From Nostoc punctiforme PCC 73102 (lineage in GTDB: Bacteria > Cyanobacteriota > Cyanobacteriia > Cyanobacteriales > Nostocaceae), in assembly GCF_000020025.1 (NCBI RefSeq), contig NC_010628.1, positions 2,670,001 through 2,702,000 of the forward strand: DNA of 32,000 nt, given 5' to 3'. Below are positions 426 through 31,800 of the stretch, piece by piece. Every line of letters starts with the position of its first letter. The first letter of the stretch is position 1. The notes beneath the pieces are model-generated. The model had not been told where the DNA came from. It searched no databases and was given only the letters and a program-made list of their open reading frames with translations. Made by a program: the position numbers and the translations under genes.

Positions 426-3400
426 ACAGCAACAGGCACTTCGACTTACCTCGGCTCCGCTCGGCACAAGTCGCTCAGTACAAGACTTAGAACTATCTGA
501 ACCACCTATTTTACCAAAGATGAGGGATGCAGAATTACCACTGTCTTATGCTCAACAGCGTCTGTGGTTTTTAGATCAGTTCGAGCCGAATAGCGCCTTT
601 TACAACATTCCTATGGCTTTGCGTCTAGTGGGAAATTTGAATCAACCAGCCCTAGAACAAAGCTTACTAGAGATTATTCATCGCCACGAAGCCTTACGCA
701 CCAATTTTATTAGAGTTGATGGAAAACCTTCTCAAATTATTCAAACACAAACGAATTGGACAGTTTCAGTTATTGACTTAAAGTATTTATCTACAACCGA
801 TCAAGAAATTACTAGCCAGGAATTAGCACGACAACAAGCTATTGAGCCTTTTGACCTGGCAAACGGAGCATTAATCAGGACAACATTACTAGTGCTGTCC
901 CAGACAGAACACATATTGTTAGTTTGTATGCATCATGTTGTCAGTGATGGCTGGTCAATGGGTGTGTTTGTTCAAGAACTAGCAGCGCTGTACGATGCTT
1001 ATGCTCAAGGTCAGCCGTCACCTTTAACACCGCTACCGATTCAGTATGCAGATTTTGCTATCTGGCAAAGAGAGTGGTTACAAGGAAATGTACTGCAAAA
1101 CCAACTAACTTACTGGCAACAACAACTGGCAAACGCACCAGCCTTGTTGTCCCTACCCACAGACCGACCAAGACCTGCTGTGCAGACTTTTGCTGGTGCA
1201 TATCAAAAGTTTGCCCTCTCTGCTGAACTCACTGGTAGGTTGATACAACTGAGTCAGAAACAAGGGGTGACTTTGTTCATGACACTTTTGGCAGCGTTTG
1301 ATACCCTGCTTTACCGCTACACAGGTACAGAAGACATTTTGGTGGGATCTCCCATTGCTAACCGCGATCGCAGTGAGATAGAAGGGTTAATTGGCTTTTT
1401 TGTCAATACTTTAGTCATGCGTACTGACTTAGCAGGCAACCCCAGTTTTAGCGAATTACTGACTCGTGTCCGCGAAATAGCGATGGAGGCATACTCGCAT
1501 CAGCATTTGCCTTTTGAAATGCTAGTGGAAGCATTGCAGCCAGAACGGGATCTTAGCCATACACCGCTATTCCAGGTGATGTTTACACTTCAGAATGCGC
1601 CCATATCGACCGTGGAGTTAAATCAGTTAAGTGTCAGTTCAACGTTGATAGAAGGTACAACTGCCAAGTTTGATCTTACCTTGTCAATGGAAAATACTGC
1701 TACTGGAGTAGTGGGTGTGTGGGAATATAGCACTGACTTGTTTGATGCCAGCACAATTGAGCGAATGACGGGTCATTTTGTGACATTGCTTGAAAGTATT
1801 ATTGCTAACCCACAACAGTCCATTTCTCAATTGCCCCTGTTGACAGAAATTGAGCAACAACAGTTATTGGTTGAGTGGAACAATACTCAAGCGGATTATC
1901 CCCTTGATAAATGTCTCCATCAGTTGTTTGAGGAGCAAGTAGCGCGTACACCCGATGCTGTAGCGGTGGTGTTTGAAAACCAACAACTGACTTACCAGCA
2001 GTTGAATTGTCGCGCAAATAAGTTAGCACATTATTTGCAGTCTTTGGGAGTGGGAGCAGATGTGCTGGTGGGTATTTGTCTGGAGCGATCGCTCTTGATG
2101 GTAGTAGGACTATTAGGGATTCTTAAGGCAGGTGGAGCTTATGTACCACTTGACCCAGACTATCCACAAGATCGCTTGAGCTTCATGCTAGAAGATGCTC
2201 AAGTGAGAGTGCTGCTGACACAGCAGCAACTCAAGAAAAAGTTACCTCAGCATCAAGGGCAGGATATATATTTAGATACTGACTGGCAATTTATTTCTCA
2301 GTCCAGTCAGGAAAATCCAATTACTACTGTACAAGGTAGTAACTTGGCTTATGTGATTTACACATCCGGTTCCACTGGCAAGCCCAAAGGAGCAATGAAC
2401 ACCCACTTGGGAATTTGCAATCGCCTGCTGTGGATGCAACAAGCTTATCAATTAACAGATGTAGATTGCATTTTACAGAAAACTCCTTTTAGCTTCGACG
2501 TTTCAGTTTGGGAATTCTTCTGGCCATTAATCACTGGAGCGCGTTTAGTTGTGGCTAAAGCAGGAGGACATAAAGATAGTGCTTACTTGGTCAACCTAAT
2601 TTTAGAACAGCAGGTTACTCATGTGCATTTTGTTCCTTCTATGCTCCAGGTTTTCTTAGAAGAACCAAGTCTCGAAAATTGCCGTAGCTTGAAACGATTT
2701 ATCTGTAGTGGTGAAGCTTTGCCTGTAGAACTTCAGGAACGCTTTTTTGCTCGGTTAGAGTGTGAATTGCACAATCTCTATGGCCCAACAGAAGCGGCAA
2801 TTGATGTCACCTACTGGCAATGCTTTCCAAATGGGAATCTTAGGATAGTACCGATTGGGCAGCCTATAGCCAACACACAAATTTATATTTTAGACGAGCA
2901 TCTGCAACCAGTCCCTGTAGGTGTAGCCGGAGAATTGCATATTGGTGGTGCAGGATTAGCAAGAGGCTATCTCAACCGTCCAGAGTTGACAAAAGAAAAA
3001 TTCATTTCCAACCCCTTTGAAAATTCAAAATTATATAAAACTGGAGATTTAGCGCGTTATTTACCTGATGGCACAATTGAATACATCGAACGAATTGATA
3101 ACCAAGTAAAAATACGAGGTTTCCGCATCGAATTGGGAGAAATTGAGGTATTACTGAACCAATATGAGGAGGTGCAGGCATCTTGTGTTATTGCCCGCGA
3201 AGGTACGACGGGGGATAAATGCTTAGTCGCCTATATAGTGCCGCATCAGCACTCTAAACCCACAACCAATGAACTGCGGCAATTCCTGAAAGCAAAGCTA
3301 CCAGACTACATGGTGCCAAGTGCTTTTGTAATATTGGAATCAATGCCACTCACTTCTAACGGCAAAGTAGACCGTCGCGCTTTACCCGCACCAGATTTAT

Positions 3401-6400
3401 ACAGCGAAATCAAAGATAAATATGTAGCCCCACGTACTCCAATTGAAGAAATACTGGCGCAAACTTGGTCACAAGTACTGCAACTGCCACAGGTAGGCAT
3501 ACATGATAACTTCTTTGAACTTGGGGGACACTCACTATTAGCAACACAATTAGTTTCACGCATCCGCAACATTTTCAAAGTGGAACTACCATTGCGAGAG
3601 TTGTTTGCCGCCGCCACACTAGCCGAATTAGCACGAGAAATTGAACAATTACAGCAACAAGTACTTCGACTTACCTCGGCTCCGCTCGGCACGAGTCGCT
3701 CAGTACAAGACTTACAACTGTCTGCACCACCTATCTTACCAAGGGCGGAGAATGCACTATTAGCACTGTCTTATGCTCAACAGCGTCTATGGTTTTTAGA
3801 CCAATTCGAGCCAAACAGTCCCTTCTACAATATGTCCATAGCCTTGCGTTTAGCAGGAACTGTGGAAGTTGCCGCATTAGAACAAAGCTTCCAAGAAATT
3901 ATTCATCGCCACGAAGCGTTACGTACTAATTTCATTACGGTTGATGGACAGGCAACACAAATCATTCAAACAGAAACGAATTGGACAGTATCAGTTGTTG
4001 ATTTGAAGCATTTATCGACAACTAAGCAAGAAACAGCTTCGCAGCAATTAGTGCAACAACAAGCTATTCAACCCTTTGAGTTGGCAACACAAGCATTAGT
4101 GAGAGCGACATTAGTAGTGCTATCCGAGACAGAACACATACTGTTAATGTGTATACACCACATAGTCTCTGATGGCTGGTCAATCGGTTTGTTTCTCCAA
4201 GAACTAGCAACACTTTACAATGCTTATTCTCAAGGTAAAAGCTCGACTTTAGCGCCACTGCCGATTCAATATGCAGATTTTGCACTGTGGCAAAGAGAGT
4301 GGTTGCAAGGAGAAGTACTACAAAGCCAATTGAGTTATTGGCAACAAAAATTGGCTTCGGCTCCAACCTTATTGTCGCTACCCACAGACCGACCCAGACC
4401 GGCTGTGCAAACTTACCAAGGGACACATCAAGAGTTTGCACTTTCTGAAGAACTAACTGGTAAGCTAGCAAAACTCAGCCAAGAGCAAGGGGTGACTCTG
4501 TTCATGACGCTGTTGGCAGCGTTTGATACGCTGCTTTACCGCTACACAGGTACAGAAGACATTCTGGTGGGTTCGCCAATTGCTAACCGCGATCGCAGTG
4601 AGATAGAAGGGTTAATTGGCTTTTTTGTCAATACTCTAGTCATGCGTACTGATTTATCAGGCAACCCCAGTTTTAGCGAATTACTGGGTCGTGTTCGAGA
4701 AATGGCAATGGAGGCATATTCTCATCAGCATTTGCCTTTTGAAATGCTGGTAGAAGCATTGCAGCCAGAACGGGATCTCAGTCATACACCACTGTTCCAA
4801 GTAATGTTTGTCCTCCAGAATGCGCCGACATCTGGATTAGAACTGACTGGGTTAACTGTCAGTTCATTGCCAATAAAAGGTACAACTTCAAGGTTTGATT
4901 TAACCTTAATAATGCAGAACACTCCTACTGGTCTGGTAGGGGTGTGGGAGTACAACACTGACTTGTTTGATGCCAGTACCATTGAGCGAATGACTGGTCA
5001 TTTTGTGACATTGCTTGAAGGTATTATTGCTAACCCAGAGGAGCGAATTTCTCAATTACCACTGCTGACACAACCAGAACAACAAAAGTTACTTGTCGAG
5101 TGGAACGATACTCAGGTAGATTATCCAGAAGATTTGTGCATCCATCAGTTGTTTGAAGAACAGGTGGATAGTACACCCAATGCGATCGCAGTTGTATATG
5201 AAAATCAACAACTGACTTACTATGAATTAAACTACCGCGCTAACCAGTTGGCGCACTACTTGCGGTCTTTGGGTGTAGGATCTGATGCCCTAGTTGGTCT
5301 ATGTGTAGAGCGTTCTTTAGAGATGGTCATAGGATTATTGGGGATTCTCAAAGCGGGTGCTGCTTATGTGCCACTTGACCCAGAATATCCCAGCGATCGC
5401 TTGAGCTTTATTTTAGAAGATGCTCAAGTTTCTGTCTTGCTAACCCAGCAGTCAATTCTTGACAGATTGCCCCAGCATCAAGCTCACCTTGTCTGTTTGG
5501 ATACTGACGCTCAACTGATTTCCCAGTGCAGTCAGGACAATCTCATCTCCGACGTACAAGCAAATAACTTAGCTTATATAATTTATACTTCTGGTTCTAC
5601 AGGTCAACCTAAAGGTATAGCGATGAATCAGCTTGCCCTTAGCAATCTGATCTTGTGGCATCGGGAAAATCTGAAAATTCCTCGTGGAGCAAAAACCCTA
5701 CAATTTGCTTCGATTAGCTTTGATGTCTCCTTCCAAGAAATCTTCACTACCTGGTGTTCTGGAGGCACATTGTTCTTAATTGGGGAGGAATTACGCAGAG
5801 ATACATCAGCTTTGTTAGGTTTTCTCCAACAAAAAGCAATTGAGAGAATGTTTCTCCCCTTTGTTGCCTTACAGCAACTAGCTGAAGTTGCAATTGGTGG
5901 TGAATTAGTTAATAGTCATTTGCGGGAAATTATTACTGCTGGGGAACAGTTGCAGATTACTCCAGCTATTTCCCAATGGTTAAGCAAGCTAACTGATTGT
6001 ACATTGCACAATCACTATGGGCCATCAGAGAGCCATTTAGCGACCAGTTTTACTCTGACTAATTCAGTGGAGACTTGGCCGCTACTTCCTCCCGTTGGTC
6101 GTCCCATTGCCAACGCGCAAATCTATATCCTTGATAAGTATCTACAGCCTGTACCCGTGGGTGTACCAGGAGAATTGTACATTGCTGGTGTCCTTTTATC
6201 GCAAGGCTACTTCAACCGACCAGAGTTAACACTTGAGAAATTCATCCCTAACCCCTTTAAAAGAAGCAGAGGAGCAGCACTTCGGCTACGCTCAGTGACC
6301 GATGAGCAGGGGAGCAGAGGGGAAACCTTTAATTCCGATCGCCTTTACAAAACAGGGGACTTAGCACGCTATTTAAGTGATGGCAATATTGAATACTTGG

Positions 6401-9400
6401 GGCGTATTGACAATCAGGTGAAAATTCGAGGTTTCCGCATCGAGTTGGGCGAAATTGAAGCAGTACTGAGCCAACTTGATGTACAAGCATCTTGTGCGAT
6501 CGCCCGCGAAGACATTCCTGGGAACAAACACCTAGTCGCTTACATTGTGCCTCAAGAAGAGCAGACTTGTACTGAGCGGAGTCGAAGTACACTCACAGTC
6601 AGCTTTGTGCGTAGCTTCCTGAAGGAAAAGTTACCAGAATATATGGTGCCAAGTGCAATAGTGATCTTGGACGCTTTACCGCTTACCCCCAACGGTAAAC
6701 TAGACCGCCGCGCATTGCCCGCACCTGATTTACACAGCCAATTATTGGACAAATATGTTGCCCCACGTAACCCAATCGAAGAAATTCTGTCGTTAATTTG
6801 GGCACAAGTTCTGAAAGTAGAGCAAGTGGGTATATATGATAACTTCTTTGAACTTGGAGGACACTCCCTACTAGCAACGCAACTCATCTCCCGTGTGCGT
6901 ACTAGCTTGAAAGTAGAATTACCATTGCGTAGCTTATTTGCTGCACCAACTGTTGCTGAATTGTGCCAAAACATTCAACGGTTACAGCAACAGGATTTAG
7001 AACTAATAGCATCACCCATCTTACAAAGGGCAGAGAATGCAGAATTACCATTGTCATTTGCCCAAACACGGCTATGGTTTTTAGACAAGTTAAACCCGAA
7101 CAGCGCCTTCTACAACTTCCCCATAGCTTTGCGTTTAGTCGGAACTCTCAATCGAACTGCCTTAGAACAAAGCTTACAAGAAATTGTTCATCGCCACGAA
7201 GCGTTACGCACCAACTTTGTCATCGTTGATGGAAAGCCTTCTCAAATTATTCAAGCACAAATAAATTGCACACTCTCAGTTGTTGAATTCAAGCATTTAT
7301 CTACACTTGTACTGAGCGAAGACGTTGGCGAAGCCTCTGCCTCAGCAGAAGTAACCGAGCAAGAAACAGCTTTACAGCAATTAGCGCAACAGCCCTTTGA
7401 CTTAGCAAATGAAGCATTAGTTAGGGCAACATTAATAGTGCTGTCCCAGACAGAACACACCTTATTAGTCTGTATGCATCACATAGTTAGCGATGGCTGG
7501 TCAATGGGTGTGTTTGTTCAAGAGCTAGCAGCCTTATACAATGCTTATTCTCAAGGTGATCTGTCACCTTTAACACCACTGCCGATACAGTACGCAGATT
7601 TCGCAATTTGGCAGCGAAACTGGTTGCAAGGAGATGTCTTACAAAGTCAATTGAGTTACTGGCAAAAACAACTGGCAAACGCACCAGCTTTGTTGTCACT
7701 ACCCACTGACCGACCTAGACCATCTATGCAGACTTTCGCAGGTGCATATCAACAGTTTGCGCTCTCAAAGGAATTAACTGATAAACTCACGCAACTAAGC
7801 CAGCAACAAGGAGTTACTTTGTTCATGACGCTGTTAGCAGCGTTTGATACCTTACTTTACCGCTATACAGGTACAGAAGACATTTTGGTGGGTTCGCCAA
7901 TTGCTAACCGCGATCGCAGTGAGATAGAAGGGTTAATTGGCTTTTTTCTCAACACTTTAGTCATGCGTACCAATTTGGCTGGTAATCCTAGCTTTAGCGA
8001 ATTACTAGGTCGTGTTCGTGAAATGGCGATGGATGCATACTCTCATCAGAATTTGCCTTTTGAAATGCTAGTAGAAGCATTGCAGCCAGAACGGGATCTC
8101 AGTCATACACCACTGTTCCAAGTGATGTTTGTCCTCCAAAATGCTCCTATATCTCAACAATTGGAGTTGACTGGGTTAACTGTTAGTCCACTGGTGGTAA
8201 AAAGTACAAATACCAAATTTGATCTTACCTTGGCAATGGAAAACACTGCCACCGGACTGGTTGGGATGTGGGAATACAACACTGATTTGTTTGATGCATC
8301 CACCATTGAGCGAATGACGGGTCATTTTCTGACATTACTTGAAGGTATTATTGCTAACCCAGAAGAGCGAATTTCTCAACTGCCACTATTAACAGAAGTT
8401 GAGCAACATCAACTATTAGTAGAGTGGACTGATACTCAGGTAGATTATCCGCTAGATTTGTGTATCCATCAGTTGTTTGAAGAGCAGGTTCAGCGTACAC
8501 CTGATGCAGTGGCAGTTGTTTTTGAAGACCAGCAACTGACTTACCACCAGCTTAATAGTCGTGCTAACCAGTTGGCGCACTACCTCAAGTCTTTGGGTGT
8601 GAGAGCAGATGTGCTGGTGGGCATTTGTGTGGAACGCTCAATAGAAATGGTGGTGGGACTACTAGGTATTCTGAAAGCGGGTGGCGCATACTTACCACTT
8701 GACCCTGAGTATCCGACTGAGCGTTTGCACTTTATGCTAGAAGATGCTCAAGTTTCGGTGTTGCTGACTCAGCAGAAACTCCTTGATAGACTGTCCCAAC
8801 ATCAAGCAAAGCTGGTTTGTTTGGATACTGACTGGCAGCTTATTTCTCAGTCCAGTCAGGATAATCTCATCACTGAGACGCAAGCAACTAATTTGGCTTA
8901 CGTGATTTATACTTCCGGTTCTACAGGTCAACCCAAGGGAGTGCTGATTGCCCATCAAGGATTATTAAATTTGGTGTTCTGGCATCAACATACTTTTAAA
9001 ATCACGACCTTAGATAAAGCTACTCAGCTAGCAGGAACAGCATTTGACGCTGCGGTATGGGAATTATGGCCTTACTTAACCGCAGGAGCAAGTATCTACT
9101 TAGTCAAATCTGAGTTCCTTAGCTCGTTAGTGAAGCTACGAGACTGGTTGATTTCAAAGCAGATTACTATCAGTTTTCTGCCAACACCACTGGCACAGGA
9201 ATTATTGTCTTTGGAATGGCCAACTGAAAGTTTGGCTTTGCGAACCATACTGACTGGAGGAGATAAGCTTCATCAGTATCCATCAGATTTAGTCCCCTTC
9301 CAACTAGTGAATAATTATGGCCCAACTGAAAATACTGTTGTTACAACTTCTGGGCTGGTAGTTGCCAAGGAGCAAGATCAGATATCACCGAGTATTGGCA

Positions 9401-14147: not shown

Positions 14148-14184
14148 GTAACAAATAATTTTAAATTACGAATTAGCTGATGTA

Positions 14185-14188
14185 GAGG
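14185..14188 (+). promoter_or_regulatory. Weak Shine-Dalgarno (GAGG) for nosC
   Basis: GAGG lies 10 nt upstream of GTG 14199 in the 51-nt nosB-nosC spacer. That spacer is the only intergenic DNA in the window. Confidence 0.4.
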
Positions 14189-14198
14189 TAATGTTTCT

Positions 14199-14366
14199 GT
14201 GAATATCGAACAATTGGTCGTTGATCTTAGTAAACAGGGTGTAAAGTTGTGGGTTGAAGGTGAGCAGTTGCGTGTTAATGCTCCAAAAGGGGTATTGACA
14301 CTAGAAACTCGTGACTTATTAGCTAAAAATAAAGCAGAACTTATCTTCTTGCTGCATGAGAAAAAT
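14199..14366 (+). other. N-terminal TubC-type (beta-hairpin) docking domain
   Basis: The sequence MNIEQLVVDLSKQGVKLWVEGEQLRVNAPKGVLTLETRDLLAKNKAELIFLL fits the xxLxxxGVxLWxEGxxLRxxAPxGxLTxExxxxLxxxKxELxxLL pattern of TubC_N docking domains. It precedes the first C domain. Confidence 0.7.
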
Positions 14367-20300: not shown

Positions 20301-23300
20301 CAACCAGTTCCTGTAGGTGTAGCAGGAGAATTGCATATCGGTGGTTTAGGTTTAGCAAAAGGCTACCTTAACCGCCCACAATTGACACAAGAAAAATTTA
20401 TCTCTAACCCCTTCAAAAGAAGCAGAGGAGCAGGGGAGCAGGCGAGCAGAGGGGAAACCTTTAATTCTAATCGCCTCTACAAAACAGGGGATTTAGCCCG
20501 CTATTTACCAGATGGCACAATTGAATACCTGGGACGAATTGACAATCAAGTAAAAATACGTGGTTTCCGCATTGAGTTGGGAGAAATAGAAGCAGTCCTG
20601 AGCCAACATGAGGATGTGCAAGCATCTTGTGTTATCGCCCGCGAAGATACCCCAGGTGATAAACGCCTAGTCGCCTACGTAGTACCGCATCTAGGACAGA
20701 CACCTACAGTTAGCCAGTTGCGCTCCTTCCTGTCTAACCAACTGACTACTTACATGGTGCCACATACTTTTGTGATGCTAGAGTCCCTGCCTCTTACTCC
20801 CAACGGCAAGGTAGACCGCCGCGCATTAAAAGCACCAGACTCTCGTGGAGAACTAGAAGTCAGTTTTGTAGCCCCACGCAATCAAACCGAAGAAATATTA
20901 GCGCAGATTTGGACAGAAGTTCTCAAAGTAGAGCAAGTAGGAGTTCACGATAACTTCTTTGAACTCGGTGGAGATTCTATTCTCAGTCTTCAAATCATCA
21001 ACAGAGCAAAGCTTGCAGAATTGCAACTGACTCTCAAGCAATTATTTGCACATCAAACAATTGCAGAATTGGCCATAGTGGCAAATGTAGCGAGTGTTAT
21101 CCAAATAGAACAAGGTTTGGTAACAGGGACATTACCTCTAACGCCAATTCAACACTGGTTTTTTGAGCAAAATTTACAACAACCGCATCACTTTAATCAA
21201 TCATTTCTGCTCTCAGTACCATCTGACCTCAAGCCAGAGCTATTAAAGCAAGTATTACAGCAATTGCTAGTACATCATGATGCTCTGCGCCTACGTTTTA
21301 CACAATCTGACTCTACTTGGCAGCAAACTCACTCTGCTGTGACTGATAGTGTTGCTTTCTCTTATATAGACTTATCGGCACTCCCACAGAATAAACAAAA
21401 AACTGCGATTGAAGCTAGCGCAACTTGCTTACAGGCGAGTTTGAATCTGTCAGAAAATCTAGTGCAAGTCGCCTTTTTCTATCTGGGTATTGACAAAAGG
21501 GCACGATTACTAATTATTATCCACCACTTGGTAGTTGACGGCGTTTCTTGGCGAATTTTGTTAGAGGATTTGCAAACAGCTTACCAGCAACTTGCTCACG
21601 GTAAAGTAATCGCACTGCCTGCTAAAACAACTTCTTTCAAAGATTGGTCTAACAAACTAACCAAATACGCACAGTCAGAAACAATAAAATCCGAGATGGC
21701 TTATTGGTTGAATGAATCTCGCGCCGCAGTTTCTCCTATGCCAGTTGATTATACACAAGGGGCAAACACTGTTGAAGCAGCTAGTACAGTAACAGTGTCG
21801 TTAAATGAAGCGCAAACTCGCGCTTTGCTACAAGATGTGCCAAAAGCTTACAACACTCAGATTAACGATGTGCTACTAACTGCTTTGGCGCTGGTTTTGA
21901 GCAGATGGACTAACTCAAGCTCTGTGCTGTTCAACTTAGAAGGTCATGGGCGGGAAGACATTATTGATGGTGTAGATTTGTCGCGCACTATCGGTTGGTT
22001 TACAACCATCTTCCCTGTACTTTTGGAACTGGGAGCAACAGAAAATCCAGCCGATGCCTTAAAATCTGTCAAAGAACAACTGCGGGCTATTCCTAATAAA
22101 GGAATTGGCTATGGCTTATTGCGTTATCTGATTCAGGATGCAGAAATTGCTGCCCAACTAGAGGCATTACCGCAAGCAGAAATCAGTTTTAATTATTTGG
22201 GTCAATGTGACCAACTGCTCAATACATCTTCTTGGATGCAGCTAGTTAGTGAGTCTACGGGACACAGCCACAGTTTGCAGAACAACCGCGCTCATCTACT
22301 AGATATTAATAGCGTTATTGCTGGAGAACGGTTACAAATAGATTGGACTTACAGCCCAAATATCCACCAGCACGCCACAATCGAAAGTCTGGCACAAGAA
22401 TTTGTCAAGACATTGCTTGGACTAATTGCTCATTGTTCATCGCCTGAGAGTGGAGGTTACACACCTTCAGATTTCTCGCTAGTCAAGCTCAATCAGCCAG
22501 AAATAGACCAATTGTTGGCAAGGTTAGTATCCAAAAATCAATCAGGCAAAACTAACTCCAGAAATATTGAAGATATTTACCCGCTCTCGCCAACGCAACA
22601 GGGTATGCTGTTTGAGAGTTTGTACGCTCCAGACTCAGGAGTATATTTTCAGCAGTTAAGTTGCACTTTGACAGGTAAGTTGAATGTGACAGCATTTGAG
22701 CAAGCTTGGCAGCAAGTGGTAGCACAGCATTCAATCTTGCGGACTGCTTTTGTTTGGGAGCAATTAGCCCAGCCACTTCAAGTAGTGTATCGGCAGGTGG
22801 ATGTTAACCTCAACAGCCATGATTGGCAACAGTTATCTGCACAAGATCAACAACAGCAATTAGAGCTTTTGTTGCACTCACAGCGAAAACAAGGTTTCCA
22901 ACTGTCTCAACCACCACTGATACATCTGAGCCTCATCCAATTGAGTGCAGATACTTATCAATTTATTTGGAGTTCTCATCACTTATTGCTTGATGGCTGG
23001 TCGATGCCTTTGGTTTTCAAAGACTTATTGTACTTTTATCAAGCAATTTCTCAGGGTGAAAACTTAGCTGTTCAACCAACCCAAAGCTACCGCAACTATA
23101 TTGCTTGGCTACAGAAACAAGACTTAGCCCAAGCTGAACAATTTTGGAGAGAAAAACTCCAAGGTTTTACTGCACCCACTCCTTTTAGTGTTGATAAAAA
23201 ACAATCATCAAACCGTAAAAAGTTAGATTCTAGCTATAGCGAACAACAAACTCAACTGACAGTGCAAGCGACAGCCGCAATCCAAAGTTTTGCACGGAAG

Positions 23301-25850: not shown

Positions 25851-28800
25851 TGATTGAAGAATTACCCCTATCTTATGCTCAACAGCGTTTGTGGTTTTTA
25901 GACCAGTTAGAGCCGAACAGTGCTATATACAACATCCTTTTAGCTTTGCGTCTAGAGGGAAATCTCAATCGGGCTGCCTTAGAACAAAGCTTTCAAGAAA
26001 TTATTGATCGTCATGAAGCATTACGCACTAATTTCATTACGGTTGATGGAAAACCTTCTCAAATTATTCAAACACAAATTAATTGGACAATTTCAGTTGT
26101 TGAGTGCGAACATCTGCCACCAAGCGAACAAGAAATCGCTACACAGCAATTCGTTCAACAACAAGCGATTCAGCCTTTTGACTTGGCAGAGGGAGCATTA
26201 ATCAGAGCGACATTAATTGTGCTATCCAAGACAGAACACATATTGTTACTGTGTATGCACCATATTGTCTCTGATGCCTGGTCATTGGGTGTATTTGTCC
26301 AAGAACTAGCAGCACTATACAACGCTTATTCTCAAGGAGAACCGTCACCTTTAATACCACTGCCGATTCAGTACGCAGATTTTGGCATTTGGCAAAGAGA
26401 GTGGTTGCAAGGGGAGCTACTGCAAAATCAAATCTCGTACTGGCAACAACAACTAAAAGATGCACCAGCCTTGTTGTCCCTACCCACAGACCGACCAAGA
26501 CCTGCTGTGCAGACTTTCGCTGGCGCAATTCAAGAGTTTGCACTCTCAGTTGAGTTAAGCAATCAGCTGACACAACTGAGCCAAAAACAAGGGGTGACTT
26601 TGTTCATGACACTTTTGGCAGCCTTTGATACCCTACTTTACCGCTACACAGGACAGTTAGACATTTTAGTAGGGTCTGCGATCGCAAACCGCGAACACAG
26701 TGAAATTGAAGGGTTAATTGGCTTTTTTGTCAATACTTTAGTCTTGCGTACTGATTTATCAGGCAACCCCAGTTTTAGCGAATTACTTTCTCGCGTTCGG
26801 CAAGTAGCTCTAGGAGCATACTCTCATCAAGAGTTGCCATTTGAAATGCTAGTTGAGGCATTACAACCAGAACGGAATCTCAGCCATCCACCACTGTTCC
26901 AAGTGATGTTTGTACTCCAGAATACACCCATGTCTGGAGTAGAACTTGCTGGCTTAACTATCAGTTCTTTGCCACCCCAAAACACAATTGCTAAGTTTGA
27001 TTTAACTTTATCAATGCACAACTCAGTTACTGGGCTAGTGGGGATATGGGAATATAACACTGACTTATTTGATGCCAGCACAATTGAGCGGATGGCAAAG
27101 CATTTTGTAACACTGCTCTCTGGAATTGTTGCTAATCCAGAGGAACGGATTTCGCAATTGCCTTTGCTGTCCCACACAGAGCAACAGCAGTTATTAGTTG
27201 AATGGAATAATACTCAAGCAGACTATCCTGTTGATAAGTGTATTCATCAGTTGTTTGAGGAGCAATCTGTGAGTACACCCGATGCTGTAGCTGTGGTGTT
27301 TGAAAATCAACAACTAACTTACCACCAGTTGAATAGTTGTGCTAACCAGTTGGCGCACTACCTCAAGTCTTTGGGTATAAAATCAGATACGCTGGTGGGT
27401 ATTTGCGTGGAACGCTCAATAGAAATGGTAGTGGGACTGTTGGGGATTCTCAAGGCAGGCGGAGCTTATGTACCACTTGACCCAGAGTATCCTACTGAGC
27501 GTTTGGCTTTCATGTTAGAAGATGCTGAAGTTTCCATACTGTTGACTCAACAGCGACTTATTGACAGACTTCCTGAGCATCAAGCAAAATTTATCTGTTT
27601 AGATGAAGCTTGGGAACAAATTGCCCAAAACAATCAAGATAACCCAACAAGTGAAGTCAAAGCTTTTCATCTAGCTAATCTGATTTACACTTCTGGTTCA
27701 ACAGGTAAACCTAAAGGTGTGATGGTTGAGCATAAGGGATTATGCAACCTAGCTCAAGCTCAGATTCAAACTTTTGGCTTGACTTCGGATAGTCGCGTTC
27801 TTCAGTTTGCCTCCTTCAGTTTTGATGCTTCTATCTCAGAAATTTTGATGGCTCTGGGGTCGGGTGCAAGGCTGTATCTGGGAACAAAAGACTCTCTACT
27901 GCCTGGGAAGCCATTAATTGAGCAATTAAGCGATCGCAGCATTACCCATATCACCCTACCGCCATCGGCGTTAGCAGTTATGCCTGGGTCGGAACTTCCG
28001 GCACTGCAAACAATAATTGTAGCGGGAGAAGCAAGTTCATCTGAATTAATCAGACAATGGTCTGCTGGCAGAAACTTCTTCAATGCCTATGGGCCAACAG
28101 AAGCTAGTGTCTGTGCCACAATCGCAAAATGCACTGAAGATGACAATAAAATATCTATTGGTAAGGCGATCGCCAACGTCCAGGTTTATATTTTAGATGA
28201 ATATCTGCAACCAGTACCGATTGGTGTACCAGGTGAATTGCATATTGGTGGTTTGGGGTTGGCACGAGGCTACCTTAATCGTCCAGAGTTGACAAAAGAA
28301 AAATTTATTCCCAATCCCTTCGCTCGAAGCAGGGAAGCAGGGGAGCAGGGGAGCAGAGGAGCAGAAATTCTTCTAAATTCCCAATTCCCAGTCCCCAGTC
28401 CCCAATCCCCAATCCCCAATCCCCGACTTTATAAAACCGGAGATTTAGCACGCTATTTACCAAATGGCAACATTGAATACCTGGGACGCATCGACAATCA
28501 GGTAAAAATCCGTGGCTTCCGTATCGAGTTGGGAGAAATTGAAGAATTACTGAACCAACATAGTGATGTGCAGACAGCTTGTGTTATTGCCCGTGAAGAT
28601 CATCCAGGTGATACTTGTACTGAGCGACTCGTGCCGAGCATCTCGACTTCGCTCGATCGAACCGGAGCCGAGGTAAGTCGAAGTAAACGCTTAGTTGCCT
28701 ACGTGGTAGGACATAAACAACATTCACCTACAATTAACCAGTTAAGATCCTTCCTCTCTAGCCAACTGCCACAATACATGATACCTCATGCTTTTGTGAT

Positions 28801-31800
28801 GCTAGAGTCTTTACCTCTGACTCCCAACGGCAAGGTAGACCGTCGCGCATTGAGAGCGCCAGACTCTCGTGAGGGACTGGAAATAAGTTTTGTCGCCCCG
28901 CGCACTCCGATTGAAGAAATCCTGACGCAAATTTGGACACAAGCCCTGAAAGTAGACCAAGTAGGCATATATGATAACTTCTTTGAACTTGGGGGACACT
29001 CACTACTAGCAACGCAATTAGTTTCACGTATCCGCAACATTTTCAAAGTGGAACTACCATTGCGTGAGTTCTTTGCCAGAACAACAGTTGCCGAATTAGC
29101 GCGTTCGATTGAGCAATTGCAGCAACAAGACTTAGAATTGGTTTCCCCACCCATCTTACCAAGGGCAGAGAATGCAGAATTACCACTGTCTTATGCTCAA
29201 CAGCGTCTTTGGTTTTTAGACCAGTTCGAGCCAAACAGTGCCATATACAACATTCCTATGGCTTTGCGTCTAGTCGGAACACTTAATCAAGTTGCCTTAG
29301 AACAAAGCTTGTATGAAATCATTAATCGCCACGAAGCCTTACGCACCAACTTTGTGATAGTTGATGGAAAACCTTCTCAACTTATTCAAACACAAACGAA
29401 TTGGACAGTAACAGTAGTTGACTTGAAGCATTTATCAACACTTGTACTGAGCGAAGCCGTTGGCGTTCGCGTAGCGTCTCCGTTAGGAGAAGCCTCTGCC
29501 TCAGCAGAAGTAACTGAACAAGAAATTGCTACACAGCAATTAGCGCAACAACAAGCTAATCAACCGTTTGACTTAGCAAACCAAGCATTAGTTAGGGCAA
29601 CATTAATTGTGCTGTCCGAGACAGAACACGTTTTGAGTGTATGTATGCACCATATTGTCTCTGATGCTTGGTCAATGGGTGTGTTTATCCAAGAACTAGC
29701 AGCACTGTACAACGCTTACTCTCAAGGTGAGCCGTCACCTTTAACACCACTGTCGATTCAGTACGCAGATTTTGCCATTTGGCAAAGAAATTGGTTGCAA
29801 GGAGAGGTACTGCAAACTCAAATCTCGTACTGGCAACAGCAACTAAAAGCTGCACCAGCCTTGTTGTCCCTACCAACAGATAGACCCAGAGGATCTGTGC
29901 AGACTTTCGCTGGTGGACATCAAGAGTTTGCACTCTCAGTTGAGTTAAGCAATAAGCTGACAAAACTGAGCCAGGAGCAAGGGGTTACTTTATTCATGAC
30001 GTTGTTGGCAGCGTTTGATACGCTACTTTACCGCTACACAGGTACGGAAGATATTTTGGTGGGTTCGCCAATTGCAAACCGTAATCGTAATGAAATTGAA
30101 GGGTTAATTGGCTTTTTTGTCAATACTTTAGTGTTACGTACTGACTTATCAGGCAACCCCAGCTTTAGCGAATTACTTGGTCGCGTTCGATTAATGGCAA
30201 TAGATGCTTATGCTCATCAGGACTTACCTTTTGAAATGCTAGTAGAAGTATTGCAGCCAGAACGGGATCTCAGTCATACACCACTTTTTCAAGTCATGTT
30301 TGCCCTCCAGAATGTGCCTATGTCTGAGATAGAGCTTGCTGACTTAACTATCAGTTCTTTGCCAGTAGAAAGCGCAACTGCCAAGTTTGATTTGTTTTTA
30401 TCAATACAGAACACTGGTACTTCTGCTGAGGCAGAGGCTTCTCCTAACGGAGACGCTACGCGAACGCCAACGACTACGCTCAGTACAAGTAATGGACTGG
30501 TGGGTGTATGGGAATATAACACTGACTTATTTGATGCCAGCACAATTGAACGGATGACTGGACATTTTATGACATTGCTCTCTGGAATTGTTGCTAACCC
30601 AGAGGAGCGGATTTCGCAATTGCCTTTGCTGTCACAGACAGAGCAACAGCAGTTATTAGTTGAATGGAACAATACTCTGACGGATTATCCCCGTGATAAA
30701 TCTATCCATCAGTTGTTTGAGGAACAAGTAGAGCGTACACCCAATGCAGTGGCGGTGGAGTTTGTAGACGAGCGCAGCGAGGCTTCTCGGAGAGTAAATC
30801 AACAACTGACTTACCACCAATTAAACTGCCGTGCTAACCAGTTGGCGCACTACCTGAAGTCTTTGGGAGTATCCGCAGATGTGCTGGTAGGCATTTGTGT
30901 AGAGCGATCGCTAGAGATGGTAGTAGGACTACTTGGCATTCTCAAAGCTGGTGGGGCTTATGTGCCACTCGATCCAAACTACCCTCAAGAGCGTTTGGCT
31001 GTCATGTTAGAAGATGCTCAAGTTTCAGTGTTGTTAACCCAACATTCACTCCTCAACAGATTACCTCAGCATCAAGCTCACCTTGTCTTTTTGGATACTG
31101 ACTGGCAACTGATTTCTCAGTCTAGTCAGGATAATCTCATCTCTGATGTGCAAGCAACTAATTTGGCTTATGTAATTTATACCTCTGGTTCTACAGGTAA
31201 GCCTAAAGGTGTAGCCTTGAATCAGCTTGCTCTTTGCAATTTGATTCTGTGGCAACTGCAAAATAATACAATTTCCACTGGAGCAAAAACGCTGCAATTT
31301 GCTCCTATTAGCTTTGATGTCTCCTTCCAAGAAATGTTTTCTACCTGGTTTTCGGGAGGCACATTGTTCTTAATTACGGAGGAATTGCGCCGAGATACCT
31401 CAGCTTTGTTAGGTTTTCTCCAAGAAAAAGCTGTTGAGAGACTGTTTGTTCCCTTTGTTGCCTTACAGCAACTAGCTGAAGTCGCTGTTGGTAGTGAATT
31501 AGTTAATAGTCATCTGCGGGAAATCATTACTGCTGGGGAACAGTTGCAAATTACTCCCGCGATTTCTCAATGGTTAAGCAAACTAACCGATTGTACTTTG
31601 CACAATCATTACGGGCCATCGGAAAGCCATGTAATTATCACTTTTACTCTGAATAACTCAGTAGAGACTTGGCCGCTACTGCCTCCTATTGGCCGTCCCA
31701 TTGCTAACACGCAAATTTACATCCTGGATCAGTACCTACAGCCTGTACCCGTCGGTGTAGCAGGAGAATTGCACATTGGTGGTGTCTCTTTGGCGCAAGG

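What the first reader, a model, noticed from the sequence alone, without database searches (positions are those of the whole stretch)
438..30793. Megasynthase reading frames peppered with in-frame, nested 24-nt repeat units (24/48/72 nt) at about 22 loci
Codon-by-codon comparison of the paralogous modules shows extra blocks present in some copies and cleanly absent from others. Most blocks are exactly 24, 48 or 72 nt.
- Basic unit: ACTTGTACTGAGCG(G/A)AGTCGAAGT, seen at 6565, 9763, 9826 and 25317.
- 48-nt form: the basic unit with a related 24-mer (ACTTGTGCCGAGCGGAGCCGAGGT) in its centre, seen at 438 and 3663.
- 72-nt form: the 48-nt form with a third related 24-mer (ATCTCGACTTCGCTCGATGGAACC, inverted relative to the outer unit) in the centre of the second, seen at 17169, 17687 and 28613.
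- Second lineage: shares the ACTTGTACTGAG arm but ends CTCAGCAGAAGT (imperfect 12-nt terminal inverted repeats). It occurs as 48 nt (7305) and 72 nt (18068, 29440, 30419). The difference is again one 24-mer at the centre.
The units share a GAGCG(G/A)AG-like core, and new units land in that core, so they appear to target each other. One position pair (7/18) changes A-T to G-C between the outer and middle units, which is compatible with a conserved hairpin. Because 24 nt is 8 codons, every insertion preserves the frame. The loci sit at positions expected to be linkers or surface loops: the T-C linker, the A-subdomain loop PGD|KRLVAY, the loop before YKTGD, C-domain loops and the KS-AT linker. 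By my hand count, about 1.2 kb of the window is such inserted material. This looks like the small dispersed repeats (21-27 nt, nested, sometimes in genes) that I recall being described for Nostoc punctiforme and relatives by Elhai and co-workers. I am not aware of this density inside a single biosynthetic pathway being described, and no mobilising enzyme is known to me.
Basis: partly seen in the sequence, partly recalled or inferred. Interest (0 to 1): 0.85.

Follow-up and report, generated by a model that had tools for sequence, protein, structure and literature searches.

The report
Tiny mobile hairpin repeats inside NRPS genes
A Nostoc punctiforme peptide-synthetase gene cluster carries about 20 recent, in-frame insertions of 21-24-base mobile hairpin repeats (often nested to 48 or 72 bases); the repeat class was described in this genome in 2008, but its density in coding loops, its reuse of the same sites and its presence in other phyla are notable.

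Summary
I count 18 such blocks (858 nt), a 48-nt extra in the PKS linker and five 7/8-mer arrays.

The window is the Nostoc punctiforme PCC 73102 chromosome. That is the genome in which Elhai et al. (2008) defined small dispersed repeats (SDRs).

Main results:
- **Recent gains.** The orthologous cluster in two other strains (95% and 92-93% identical) lacks every one of the 12 testable blocks, with clean junctions.
- **Wide dispersal.** The basic 24-mer occurs exactly in at least 120 genome stretches. It sits in heptamer arrays, nested in relatives, and at the same NRPS sites in other Nostoc.
- **Beyond cyanobacteria.** 32 of those 120 stretches are non-cyanobacterial, mostly Bacteroidota. Seven phage-like contigs also carry it.
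- **Composites move whole.** 72-nt nested units occur in both orientations at different sites.
- **Different hairpin.** Covariation supports a 4-bp stem (positions 6-9 with 22-25) closing a 12-nt loop, GAGCGNAGYCGA, whose centre is the nesting site.
- **Loop positions.** AlphaFold places five tested inserts in the only low-confidence loops of otherwise confident domains.

Verdict: these are SDR-type mini mobile elements, a known kind in a new context. The mobilising enzyme remains unknown.

The parts
438..485 (-). 48-nt composite: basic unit U1 with unit U2 (ACTTGTGCCGAGCGGAGCCGAGGT) in its loop. Lies in the T-C linker and encodes LRLTSAPLGTSRSVQ.
3663..3710 (-). 48-nt U1[U2] composite at the same T-C linker site, next module.
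6268..6330 (+). Octamer-type array (AGCAGGGG-like) in the variable loop between NPF and YKTGD of the A domain. It hosts the 24-nt unit at 6277-6300.
6277..6300 (-). 24-nt family-1 unit with a different stem (reverse complement TCGGT-CACT-GAGCGTAGCCGA-AGTG). Absent in both orthologs.
6565..6588 (+). Simple 24-nt U1, encoding TCTERSRS, in the loop after AYVVP between A8 and A9. Absent in both orthologs.
7305..7352 (+). 48-nt composite: U1 carrying a 24-nt unit of another family (GTTGGCGAAGCCTCTGCCTCAGCA) at C19^G20. Lies in an N-terminal loop of the C domain. Absent in both orthologs.
9763..9786 (+). Simple U1 at the A-subdomain beta-hairpin turn PG(D/N)|KRLVAY. Absent in both orthologs.
9826..9849 (+). 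Simple U1 at the second A8-A9 loop site. Absent in both orthologs.
11691..11775 (+). KS-AT linker of the PKS: octamer arrays plus a palindromic insert. It is 48 nt longer than in the L008 ortholog. L007 has an unrelated AT-rich linker here.
16149..16217 (-). 69-nt triple composite (24+24+21): a U1-like outer unit, a GCTTG-CCCT family-1 unit, and a 21-nt CGCGTAGCGTC-core unit. Lies between A2 and A3. Absent in both orthologs. AlphaFold pLDDT is about 50.
17169..17240 (+). 72-nt triple composite U1[U2[U3 inverted]] at the PGD|KRLVAY turn. Absent in both orthologs. AlphaFold pLDDT is below 50.
17687..17758 (-). The same 72-nt composite, inverted, at a different kind of site (the T-C linker). Absent in ortholog L007.
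   Evidence: (I1, I4)
18068..18139 (+). 72-nt composite: U1[foreign 24-nt unit[24-nt CGCGTAGCGTC-core unit]]. Lies in a C-domain loop. Absent in L007. AlphaFold pLDDT is below 50.
18366..18407 (.). 42-nt block (2 x 21) related to the CGCGTAGCG-core family, in a C-domain loop. It has no counterpart in the closest homolog (P0003, the protein encoded by L007). A related block sits at the same site in other Nostoc NRPSs.
20421..20462 (+). Octamer array (AGCAGGGG x 3.6) in the NPF...YKTGD loop.
24273..24311 (+). Heptamer-like array (GGGGCTG GGGGTTG ...) between A2 and A3. Also present in L008, so it is older.
25317..25340 (+). Simple U1 (A at position 15) at PGD|KRLVAY. Absent in L008.
25529..25549 (.). 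21-nt block (TGCCTATGGCGGGCTACGCCT) before the T domain. Absent in L008.
28328..28424 (+). Octamer array (AGCAGGGG x 4.6) followed by a heptamer array (AATCCCC x 7), in the NPF...YKTGD loop.
28613..28684 (+). 72-nt U1[U2[U3 inverted]] at PGD|KRLVAY. It differs from the 17169 copy at 2 of 72 positions, while the flanks differ more.
29440..29511 (+). 72-nt composite identical in type to the one at 18068, at the same C-domain site.
30419..30490 (-). The same 72-nt composite, inverted (97% complementary), at a different site: a C-terminal hairpin turn of the C domain.
   Evidence: (I2, I3)
30764..30793 (.). 30-nt block (VDERSEASRR) at the A1 turn, with a degenerate GAGCGCAGCGAGG core. Origin unresolved.

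Best explanation
The blocks are copies of very small, non-autonomous mobile repeats of the SDR type. They inserted into the N. punctiforme PCC 73102 NRPS/PKS genes after this strain diverged from strains whose cluster is about 95% identical.

**Anatomy of the main family (shown)**
- A 5-nt 5' tail.
- A 4-bp stem of free but covarying sequence (positions 6-9 with 22-25).
- A 12-nt loop, GAGCGNAGYCGA, shared by units with many different stems.

**Behaviour (shown)**
- One insertion adds exactly 24 nt. A second family adds 21-24 nt.
- The insert lands next to a base identical to its own terminal base. For U1 this is 5' of an A, or rarely a G.
- There is no longer target duplication.
- The favoured target is the centre of the loop of a resident copy (GAGCG^N). 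Repeated hits give nested 48- and 72-nt composites.
- Composites are later copied as whole units, in either orientation.

**Mechanism (inferred)**
- The element acts as a single strand of defined polarity.
- Its loop and stem are bound by a trans-acting enzyme encoded elsewhere in the genome.
- My preferred candidate is a DNA-level nuclease-ligase of the HUH/Y1 kind that works on ssDNA hairpins. I put this at about 0.35-0.4.
- An RNA-to-cDNA route, which I recall Elhai et al. favouring, is the main alternative.

**Why only these sites are seen (inferred)**
- In coding DNA only insertions that survive selection are visible.
- Survivors have a length that is a multiple of three, use one of the five stop-free frames, and fall in linkers or surface turns.
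- The same few codon junctions are therefore filled again and again.
For: **Presence/absence**
- 12 blocks are precisely absent, with intact flanks, from ortholog L007 (95% identical) and/or L008 (92-93%).
- L007 and L008 are 92.9% identical to each other, so L008 is the outgroup and the blocks are gains in the window lineage.

**Dispersal**
- The exact 24-mer occurs in at least 120 genome stretches. About 0.01 would be expected by chance in the 596 billion bases searched (the estimate is mine).
- Among 101 distinct flank pairs, 33 lie in phase-fixed heptamer arrays and 15 lie in the loops of family members.

**Mobility of composites**
- The same 72-nt composites occur in both orientations at different sites, 97-99% complementary.

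**Stepwise nesting seen in other strains**
- A simple 24-nt form sits at the C-domain site in Nostoc CALU 546.
- U1[U3] and U1[U2] sit at the same hot spots in Nostoc DedQUE05.

**Independent hits on the same sites**
- An 82%-identical homolog has both module-3 sites filled with different U1 variants, while the 95% and 92% orthologs are empty.

**Hairpin**
- The stem 6-9:22-25 is 92% paired.
- It has 50 double-change cells against 10.9 +/- 4.2 in shuffles (0 of 500 shuffles reach this).
- Versions slid by 1-3 columns are at most 46% paired.
- G.T wobbles occur on this strand.
- Position +1 after U1 is A in 95 and G in 6 of 101 flanks, and never C or T.
- Position 1 equals position 25 in 22 of 35 non-U1 units (no shuffle in 10,000 reached this count).

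**Loop positions in the protein**
- Five inserts coincide with the only low-pLDDT stretches of two otherwise confident AlphaFold models (mean pLDDT 84.7 and 85.5).

**Genes intact and product made**
- The reading frames are uninterrupted.
- The strain produces nostopeptolides (PMC9324945).
Against: - No mobilising enzyme was found. No protein family recurs next to the copies.
- The stem is thermodynamically weak on its own: -0.7 kcal/mol, no better than shuffles. The fold rests on covariation only.
- The loop was the search key for collecting family members, so its invariance within that set is partly circular. Even so, 49 non-U1 hits against about 2 expected by chance shows the family is real.
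- Both orientations occur within one operon, and the NRPS target sites show no hairpin. This fits neither a strict lagging-strand ssDNA model nor a simple mRNA-level model.
- The host genome outside the window was not censused.
- U1 is rare on Nostoc plasmids.
- I could not check identity with the published SDR consensus sequences.
- That the window is the nostopeptolide (nos) cluster is inferred from its architecture, not verified.
Confidence: 0.85

Rival explanations
1. RNA-mediated mobility. The unit is transcribed and folds as an RNA hairpin. It is then reverse-transcribed or reverse-spliced into DNA. I recall this as the route favoured by Elhai et al. (2008).
For: - G.U-compatible wobble pairs occur on one strand only.
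- The DNA hairpin is too weak to form unaided.
- Composites are copied whole.
Against: - Both orientations occur inside one unidirectionally transcribed operon.
- No reverse transcriptase recurs near the copies.
- No Rfam family matches.
- G.T wobbles are equally compatible with ssDNA.
Confidence: 0.25
2. No transposition. The blocks are old loop sequences that spread among paralogous modules, and were lost elsewhere, by gene conversion or recombination between NRPS modules.
For: - The same sites are filled in several modules.
- NRPS modules are 75-90% identical and are known to recombine.
Against: - Flanks of the 17169 and 28613 copies differ at -7 and +6, while the 72-nt inserts differ at 2 of 72 positions.
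- Identical composites occur inverted at non-homologous sites.
- The unit is abundant in non-coding heptamer arrays and in other phyla.
- The orthologs are empty.
Confidence: 0.03
3. Enzyme-free templated insertion. Replication template switching or slippage copies a hairpin from elsewhere, using microhomology.
For: - There is one base of terminal identity with the target.
- The T-C linker target (AAGT|CTTG) mimics a junction between two elements.
Against: - The boundaries are identical in more than 100 copies.
- The phase within heptamers and the strand are both fixed.
- The stem covaries, which implies selection for a recognised structure.
Confidence: 0.08
4. The inserted peptides are selected, functional protein modules (for example for docking or regulation), not passengers.
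For: The same loops are occupied repeatedly in NRPSs of several Nostoc strains.
Against: - The same DNA unit is translated in five different frames into unrelated peptides.
- The inserts are predicted to be disordered.
- Close orthologs lack them.
- Most copies elsewhere are non-coding.
Confidence: 0.05

Closest known systems
Small dispersed repeats SDR1-SDR8 of Nostoc punctiforme and relatives (Elhai, Kato, Cousins, Lindblad, Costa, Genome Res 2008; cited in PMC3116915, PMC4390886, PMC5861425)
   Same: - Same genome.
- Unit size of 21-27 nt.
- Nesting within copies of themselves.
- Embedding in tandem heptamers.
- A hairpin supported by compensatory changes.
- Evidence of recent mobility.
- Insertion 5' of an A, as reported for SDR5 inside HIP1 (GCG^ATCGC, PMC4390886).
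   Different: - Sequence identity to a named SDR family could not be checked.
- In-frame occupation of megasynthase loops at recurrent hot spots is shown here. I do not know whether the 2008 paper reported this.
- The literature held describes SDRs as confined to Nostocaceae (PMC5861425). Here the exact unit is also in Bacteroidota, other phyla and phage-like contigs.
REP/REPIN elements mobilised by RAYT (Y1/HUH) transposases
   Same: - Short (20-40 nt) single-strand hairpins with a short unpaired 5' tail.
- Non-autonomous and dispersed.
- Presumed to be mobilised in trans.
   Different: - No GTAG or CGTC tag.
- Not extragenic.
- No inverted doublets.
- Nested self-insertion is not a REP trait.
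- Here the shared part is the loop, not the tag or the stem.
IS200/IS605 transposons and their miniature derivatives (PATEs)
   Same: - ssDNA hairpin recognition.
- Insertion without target duplication.
- The end base is specified by pairing with a base at the foot of the hairpin (here position 6 with position 25).
   Different: - Those elements need two different subterminal hairpins and a fixed 4-5-nt target, and are about 100 nt or longer.
- Here there is one hairpin in 24 nt and only a one-base target rule.
Nick sites of rolling-circle Rep (HUH) proteins: conserved loop in a stem of free sequence
   Same: - A conserved loop closed by a covarying stem.
- The strand is opened inside the loop.
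   Different: Those are replication origins, not insertions. This is an analogy only, and it rests on my own knowledge.
STRR heptamer arrays of heterocystous cyanobacteria
   Same: 7/8-mer tandem arrays occur in five coding loops of the window and are the commonest landing pad for the 24-mer elsewhere.
   Different: Arrays grow by tandem repetition, not by dispersed insertion. They are a separate component.
Interrupted adenylation domains (auxiliary domains embedded between A8-A9 or A2-A3)
   Same: The filled A-domain sites lie in the same two inter-motif regions that tolerate whole embedded domains in nature. This rests on my own knowledge of the NRPS literature.
   Different: Here the inserts are 7-24 residues of passenger peptide with no catalytic role.

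Membership tests
Small dispersed repeats (Elhai et al. 2008) | Unit of 21-27 nt | tested here: met
   Ortholog gaps of exactly 24, 48, 72, 69 (24+24+21) and 21 nt.
Small dispersed repeats (Elhai et al. 2008) | Dispersed copies in N. punctiforme and related Nostocaceae | tested here: met
   - The window is PCC 73102.
- The exact unit is in at least 88 cyanobacterial stretches, mostly Nostoc.
- The rest of the host genome was not censused.
Small dispersed repeats (Elhai et al. 2008) | Nested insertion into copies of themselves | tested here: met
   - 48- and 72-nt composites in the window.
- Up to four-fold self-nesting in L092 and L036.
Small dispersed repeats (Elhai et al. 2008) | Frequent embedding in tandem heptamers | tested here: met
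   33 of 101 distinct flank pairs keep period 7 across the junction, always in the same phase and strand.
Small dispersed repeats (Elhai et al. 2008) | Common secondary structure supported by compensatory changes | tested here: met
   The stem 6-9:22-25 is 92% paired, with 50 double changes against 10.9 in shuffles. Whether this is the published structure is unknown.
Small dispersed repeats (Elhai et al. 2008) | Filled versus empty sites between close relatives (recent mobility) | tested here: met
   Twelve blocks are absent from the 95% and/or 92-93% orthologs.
Small dispersed repeats (Elhai et al. 2008) | Sequence match to a published SDR1-8 consensus | not testable with these tools
   - The paper is not held.
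- No held paper prints the sequence.
REP/REPIN-RAYT | GTAG or CGTC tag at one end (PMC3733652) | tested here: not met
   The tails are ACTTG, CGTTC, GCGGT, GTGGT and others.
REP/REPIN-RAYT | Extragenic location and inverted doublets | tested here: not met
   - The copies are inside reading frames.
- Elsewhere they occur singly, nested, or in head-to-tail tandem.
REP/REPIN-RAYT | Cognate RAYT gene in the genome | not tested
   Only the neighbourhoods of copies were examined. Nothing recurred there.
MITE | 70-300 bp, terminal inverted repeats, target-site duplication | tested here: not met
   The unit is 24 nt, and at most one base is shared with the target.
IS200/IS605-derived miniature elements | Two distinct subterminal hairpins and a fixed tetra- or pentanucleotide target | tested here: not met
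   There is one hairpin. The 5' flank is variable and only position +1 is constrained (A or G).

The most novel reading that the evidence does not exclude
The 24-nt units belong to a cross-phylum class of ultra-small hairpin mobile elements defined by the loop GAGCGNAGYCGA.
- The class is present and active in Nostocales and also in Bacteroidota, and it reaches Chloroflexi, Ignavibacteria, Desulfuromonadales, a candidate-phylum bacterium and phages.
- A conserved, still unidentified enzyme that reads the loop would mobilise it.
- In Nostoc it would be active enough to hit one gene cluster at least 12 times since divergence from a 95%-identical strain.
- That activity would act as a natural loop-insertion mutagen of megasynthases.
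Probability: 0.35. Interest if true: 0.85.

Novelty: new member of a known kind. Interest (0 to 1): 0.6.

Why it matters
- **An open mechanism.** As far as I know, how SDRs move has been unresolved since 2008. They may be the smallest mobile elements known. This window with its two orthologs gives 12 clean filled/empty site pairs. It also gives a simple structural rule (shared loop, covarying stem, terminal base paired to position 6) and a cross-phylum distribution. Together these make a phylogenetic-profiling search for the enzyme feasible.
- **A map for NRPS engineering.** The cluster is a natural insertion-tolerance map. Ten distinct codon junctions in the C domain, the A domain and the T-C linker each accept 7-24 extra residues. 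If the window is the nostopeptolide cluster, as its architecture suggests, the assembly line still makes its product.
- **A caution for annotation.** These units add repeated peptides such as TCTERSRS and LRLTSAP to proteins. They also break short-read assemblies.

Tried and rejected
It does no better than shuffled controls.
- **Thermodynamic folding** of U1 and the composites. The family-1 units are not distinguishable from shuffles. Only the foreign-unit composite folds strongly, with z = -3.7.
- **Hairpin at the NRPS target sites.** None is consistent, and energies fall within the shuffle range.
- **Linked mobilising gene.**
  - Clustering ORFs around the copies in 32 non-cyanobacterial loci, and then in all 127 loci, gave no recurrent transposase or reverse transcriptase.
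  - The largest cluster (23 loci) begins with HAMP-like repeats and looks to me like the large sensor-kinase paralog family; I did not scan it against Pfam.
- **Rfam.** No family matches in the window.
- **Literature.**
  - The Elhai 2008 paper is not held.
  - Searches for the DNA strings, the encoded peptides and the SRA run numbers found nothing relevant.
  - A search for 'smallest mobile element' phrases was unhelpful.
- **Plasmid collection.** There were only four weak or partial hits. The inner 48-nt composite does occur alone on a Nostoc sp. C052 plasmid.
- **Full-length NosC-like protein search.** It timed out. The shorter query returned only proteins under about 1900 residues, so orthologs of the first 4.1 kb and the last 6 kb of the window were not obtained.
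- **Assembly artefact.** Rejected.
- **Adapter or synthetic contamination.** I considered this as an explanation for the cross-phylum 24-mer. I rejected it because the copies sit nested inside local relatives with other stems, and in complete isolate genomes.

Full report
**Observation**

- The 24-mer ACTTGTACTGAGCGRAGTCGAAGT is exact at 6565, 9763, 9826 and 25317. The two related 24-mers are at 448/3673 and at 17196/17708/28640. Shuffles of the window give no matches for any of them.
- The sequences at all 13 named positions show the 24/48/72-nt series.
- The repeat finder reports 72-73-nt inverted pairs that are 97-99% complementary. The copies at 438, 3663, 17687 and 30419 are therefore in the opposite orientation.

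The window holds four uninterrupted reading frames.
- There is an NRPS running in from the left, a KS-AT-ACP PKS of 1258 aa, an NRPS of 3883 aa, and an NRPS running out on the right.
- I cut these into eight C-A-T modules and aligned them.
- This gives 18 SDR-type blocks of 21-72 nt, totalling 858 nt. All are in frame and free of stop codons.
- The KS-AT linker has 48 extra nt, and five 7/8-mer tandem arrays lie in coding loops.
- Five independent public read assemblies are identical to window 9018-15293 (one begins at 9273), including two copies. Assembly error is excluded.

**Source**

The PKS protein is ACC80783.1 / WP_012408784.1 / B2J683 of Nostoc punctiforme, on a contig of 8,234,322 bp. 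The window is therefore the PCC 73102 chromosome. Its architecture fits the nostopeptolide (nos) cluster, but I did not verify that assignment. The strain does make nostopeptolide A and nostopeptolide 1052 (PMC9324945).

**Empty sites in orthologs**

A protein search returned close homologs that lack the blocks. Two of them led to orthologous DNA.
- L007 is from Nostoc sp. DedVER02 and is 95% identical. It covers window 4114-18420.
- L008 is from Desmonostoc muscorum LEGE 12446 and is 92-93% identical.

The pairwise alignments show the following.
- The blocks at 6277, 6565, 7305, 9762, 9826, 16149, 17168, 17681, 18068, 25316 and 25529 are gaps of exactly 24, 24, 48, 24, 24, 69, 72, 72, 72, 24 and 21 nt, with intact flanks.
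- The 18366 block also has no counterpart in L007's protein, P0003. That makes 12 blocks.
- An 18-nt tandem duplication at 24408 is likewise absent from L008. It is not an SDR.
- Conversely, both orthologs carry a 66-nt octamer/heptamer array where the window has none (9559-9576).
- L007 and L008 are 92.9% identical to each other. L008 is therefore the outgroup, and the blocks are gains in the PCC 73102 lineage.

**Dispersal**

By my estimate, chance would give about 0.01 matches in the 596 billion bases searched.

Three contexts stand out.
- *Heptamer arrays.* 33 of 101 distinct flank pairs lie in arrays such as GGGCATT, CCAAAAT, ACGAATT and GGTCATT. The phase and strand are always the same (...C^ATT...).
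- *Loops of related units.* 15 of 101 lie in ...CTGAGCG^AAGTCGAAG..., with up to four-fold nesting.
- *The same NRPS junctions in other Nostocales.* These include PGD|KRLVAY in L013, L046 and L076, the second A8-A9 site in L023 and L108, and the C-domain site in Brasilonema.

Other strains show the intermediate steps of nesting.
- Nostoc CALU 546 has the simple 24-nt form at the C-domain site.
- Nostoc DedQUE05 has U1[U3] and U1[U2] at the PGD and T-C sites.
- In an 82%-identical homolog of module 3, DedQUE05 has both A8-A9 sites filled with U1 variants different from those in the window.
- The same junctions have therefore been hit independently.
- Within the window, the 72-nt inserts at 17169 and 28613 differ at 2 of 72 positions, while their flanks differ at -7 and +6. 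This argues against spread by gene conversion.
- The same 72-nt composites also occur inverted at non-homologous sites: 17687 against 17169/28613, and 30419 against 18068/29440. Composites are therefore mobilised as units.

**Anatomy**

I collected every sequence in the fetched loci and the window that carries the core GAGCGNAGNCGA.
- This gave 181 hits, 49 of them not U1. About 2 would be expected by chance, by my estimate.
- They make 45 distinct 25-mers with more than 20 different stems.

On this set (alignment A1) the two candidate folds behave very differently.
- *Stem 6-9 with 22-25.* It is 92.2% paired, with double changes at all four pairs. It has 50 double-change cells against 10.9 +/- 4.2 in shuffles (0 of 500 shuffles reach this). 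Versions slid by 1-3 columns are at most 46% paired.

Further details of the unit follow.
- The unit is a 5-nt tail, a 4-bp stem of free sequence and a shared 12-nt loop. The loop was my search key, so its invariance within this set is partly built in.
- G.T wobbles occur on this strand, which points to a single strand of fixed polarity.
- After U1, position 25 is A in 95 and G in 6 of 101 flanks, never C or T.
- Position 1 equals position 25 in 22 of 35 non-U1 units (no shuffle in 10,000 reached this count).
- An insertion therefore adds 24 nt next to a base identical to the element's own terminal base, with no longer target duplication.
- Nesting of family members occurs at the loop centre (GAGCG^N). 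Units of other families enter the same loop at C19^G20 or G14^A15.
One of these families (core CGCGTAGCGTC, 21-24 nt) is itself dispersed, with 12 hits in 7 sources.
- On its own the U1 stem is weak (-0.7 kcal/mol, no better than shuffles). If the fold matters, it must be held by a partner.

**Position in the proteins**

Two AlphaFold models were built from alignments of paralogous modules and database homologs.
- *A domain of module 4* (mean pLDDT 84.7). The only poorly predicted stretches are residues 131-150 and 470-492.
  - These correspond to the 69-nt insert (residues 131-153).
  - They also correspond to the 72-nt insert (residues 471-494), which sits in the turn of a beta-hairpin between strands 456-464 and 496-503.
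- *T-C linker plus C domain of module 5* (mean pLDDT 85.5). The low stretches are 57-72, 180-194 and 282-284.
  - They lie within the three inserts at residues 48-71, 175-198 and 274-287.
- The remaining sites map, by motif position, to three kinds of place. These are the NPF...YKTGD loop, the A1 turn and a C-terminal hairpin turn of the C domain (and general knowledge of A- and C-domain motifs).
- U1 is open in five of its six frames, and all five are used. Only the frame with a stop codon is unused.

**Mechanism**

- *Shown:* recent gain, copying of composites as units, a weak one-base target rule with fixed strand, preference for the loop of resident copies, a covarying stem, and retention only where the frame and the fold tolerate the insert.
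- *Inferred:* a trans-acting enzyme recognises the loop and stem on a single strand and cuts and joins next to the base that pairs with position 6.
- I favour a DNA-level HUH/Y1-type nuclease-ligase, at about 0.35-0.4. Four features resemble REP-RAYT, IS200/IS605 and rolling-circle nick sites:
  - the shared loop in a free stem;
  - the opening inside the loop;
  - the lack of target duplication;
  - the specification of the end base by pairing.
- As I recall it, Elhai et al. proposed an RNA route. It remains possible, at about 0.25.
- Neither model is helped by three observations.
  - Both orientations occur within one operon.
  - The NRPS targets show no hairpin.
  - No gene recurs near the copies.

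**Comparison with what is known**

- The elements meet every testable criterion of the small dispersed repeats of Elhai et al. (2008), and they lie in the very genome those authors used.
- Identity with a named SDR family could not be checked, because the paper is not held.
- They are not REPs. They lack the tag, are not extragenic and do not form doublets (PMC3733652).
- They are not MITEs or IS200/IS605 derivatives.
- No held paper prints the sequence or the encoded peptides.
- I file the finding as a new member, or new context, of a known kind.
- What appears to go beyond the held literature is the following:
  - the density and hot-spot reuse inside a megasynthase cluster in a strain that makes nostopeptolides;
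  - the loop-and-stem definition of the family;
  - the distribution outside Nostocaceae.

**Beyond the finding**

- 32 of the 120 genome stretches are not cyanobacterial.
- They include isolates: the complete genome of Algoriphagus halophytocola, Cecembia lonarensis, Crocinitomix catalasitica and Thalassobellus citreus.
- They also include assembled environmental genomes of Saprospiraceae, Bacteroidales, Ignavibacteria, Chloroflexi, Desulfuromonadales, Chitinispirillaceae, a gammaproteobacterium and a Candidatus Daviesbacteria.
- In Saprospiraceae the unit is nested inside local relatives with other stems. In Cecembia it occurs once or twice in tandem within copies of a longer intergenic repeat.
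- Seven phage-like contigs with 54-58% G+C carry it at one conserved intergenic site.
- The held literature describes SDRs as absent outside Nostocaceae among cyanobacteria (PMC5861425). This wider range may be new, and it offers a route to finding the enzyme.

Noticed in passing
L009-L128 (for example L067, L041, L093, L038, L012, L036, L049, L077, L117): The exact Nostoc 24-mer also occurs in 32 non-cyanobacterial genome stretches. These come from Bacteroidota isolates and MAGs, Ignavibacteria, Chloroflexi, Desulfuromonadales, Chitinispirillaceae, a gammaproteobacterium and a Candidatus Daviesbacteria. It is often nested in local relatives with different stems. The held literature describes SDRs as confined to Nostocaceae.
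   Followed up: partly
L129-L135 (IMG/VR contigs): Seven phage-like contigs (54-58% G+C, two sequence subtypes) carry the exact 24-mer at one conserved spot, between a stop codon and the next ATG. This is a possible vehicle for spread between phyla.
   Followed up: partly
window 24408-24443: A perfect 18-nt tandem duplication (GATGATTTAGCTTATGTA x 2, giving DDLAYV DDLAYV) lies just before the A3 core motif of the sixth A domain. It is absent from ortholog L008. It is a plain duplication, not an SDR.
   Followed up: partly
window 9559-9576 versus L007 5350-5432 and L008 4845-4922: Both orthologs carry a 66-nt octamer/heptamer array in the NPF...YKTGD loop of module 3, where PCC 73102 has none. 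These arrays are also gained and lost between strains.
   Followed up: partly
window 11679-11776; L007 7505-7560; L008 6984-7033: The KS-AT linker of the PKS is hypervariable. PCC 73102 has octamer arrays plus a palindromic 48-nt extra (GGCAGT...ACTGCC). L008 has the arrays only. L007 has an unrelated AT-rich run.
   Followed up: partly
window 14182 (intergenic, PKS to next NRPS): Both orthologs have 20 extra nt of ACGAATT heptamer repeats just upstream of the next gene's start. PCC 73102 has fewer copies.
   Followed up: no
window 16149-16217, 18095-18118, 18366-18407, 25529-25549; L008 (- strand, offset 7442), L011, L050, L062, L066: A second small repeat family (21-24 nt, core CGCGTAGCGTC) nests in U1 loops. 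In D. muscorum it sits at the same C-domain loop site (...PS|PL.PLP) in another module.
   Followed up: partly
L041 1850-2910, L093 160-210: In Cecembia lonarensis a longer intergenic repeat (about 100 nt, ...ATCCGCGATAATCAG...GGGCGCGTC^ATCCGCG) carries one or two head-to-tail copies of the 24-mer. This shows copy-number variation within one genome.
   Followed up: no
window T-C linker sites 438, 3663, 17687: On the element's strand the empty target reads ...TAAGT|CTTGTTG... This mimics the junction between two tandem units (…GAAGT|ACTTGTAC…) and may explain why the linker is hit repeatedly.
   Followed up: partly
H1, Nostoc sp. C052 plasmid NZ_CP040275.1 282914-282963: The inner 48-nt composite (U2 with inverted U3) occurs on its own, 98% identical, at an unannotated plasmid site. 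Overall the family is rare on Nostoc plasmids.
   Followed up: no
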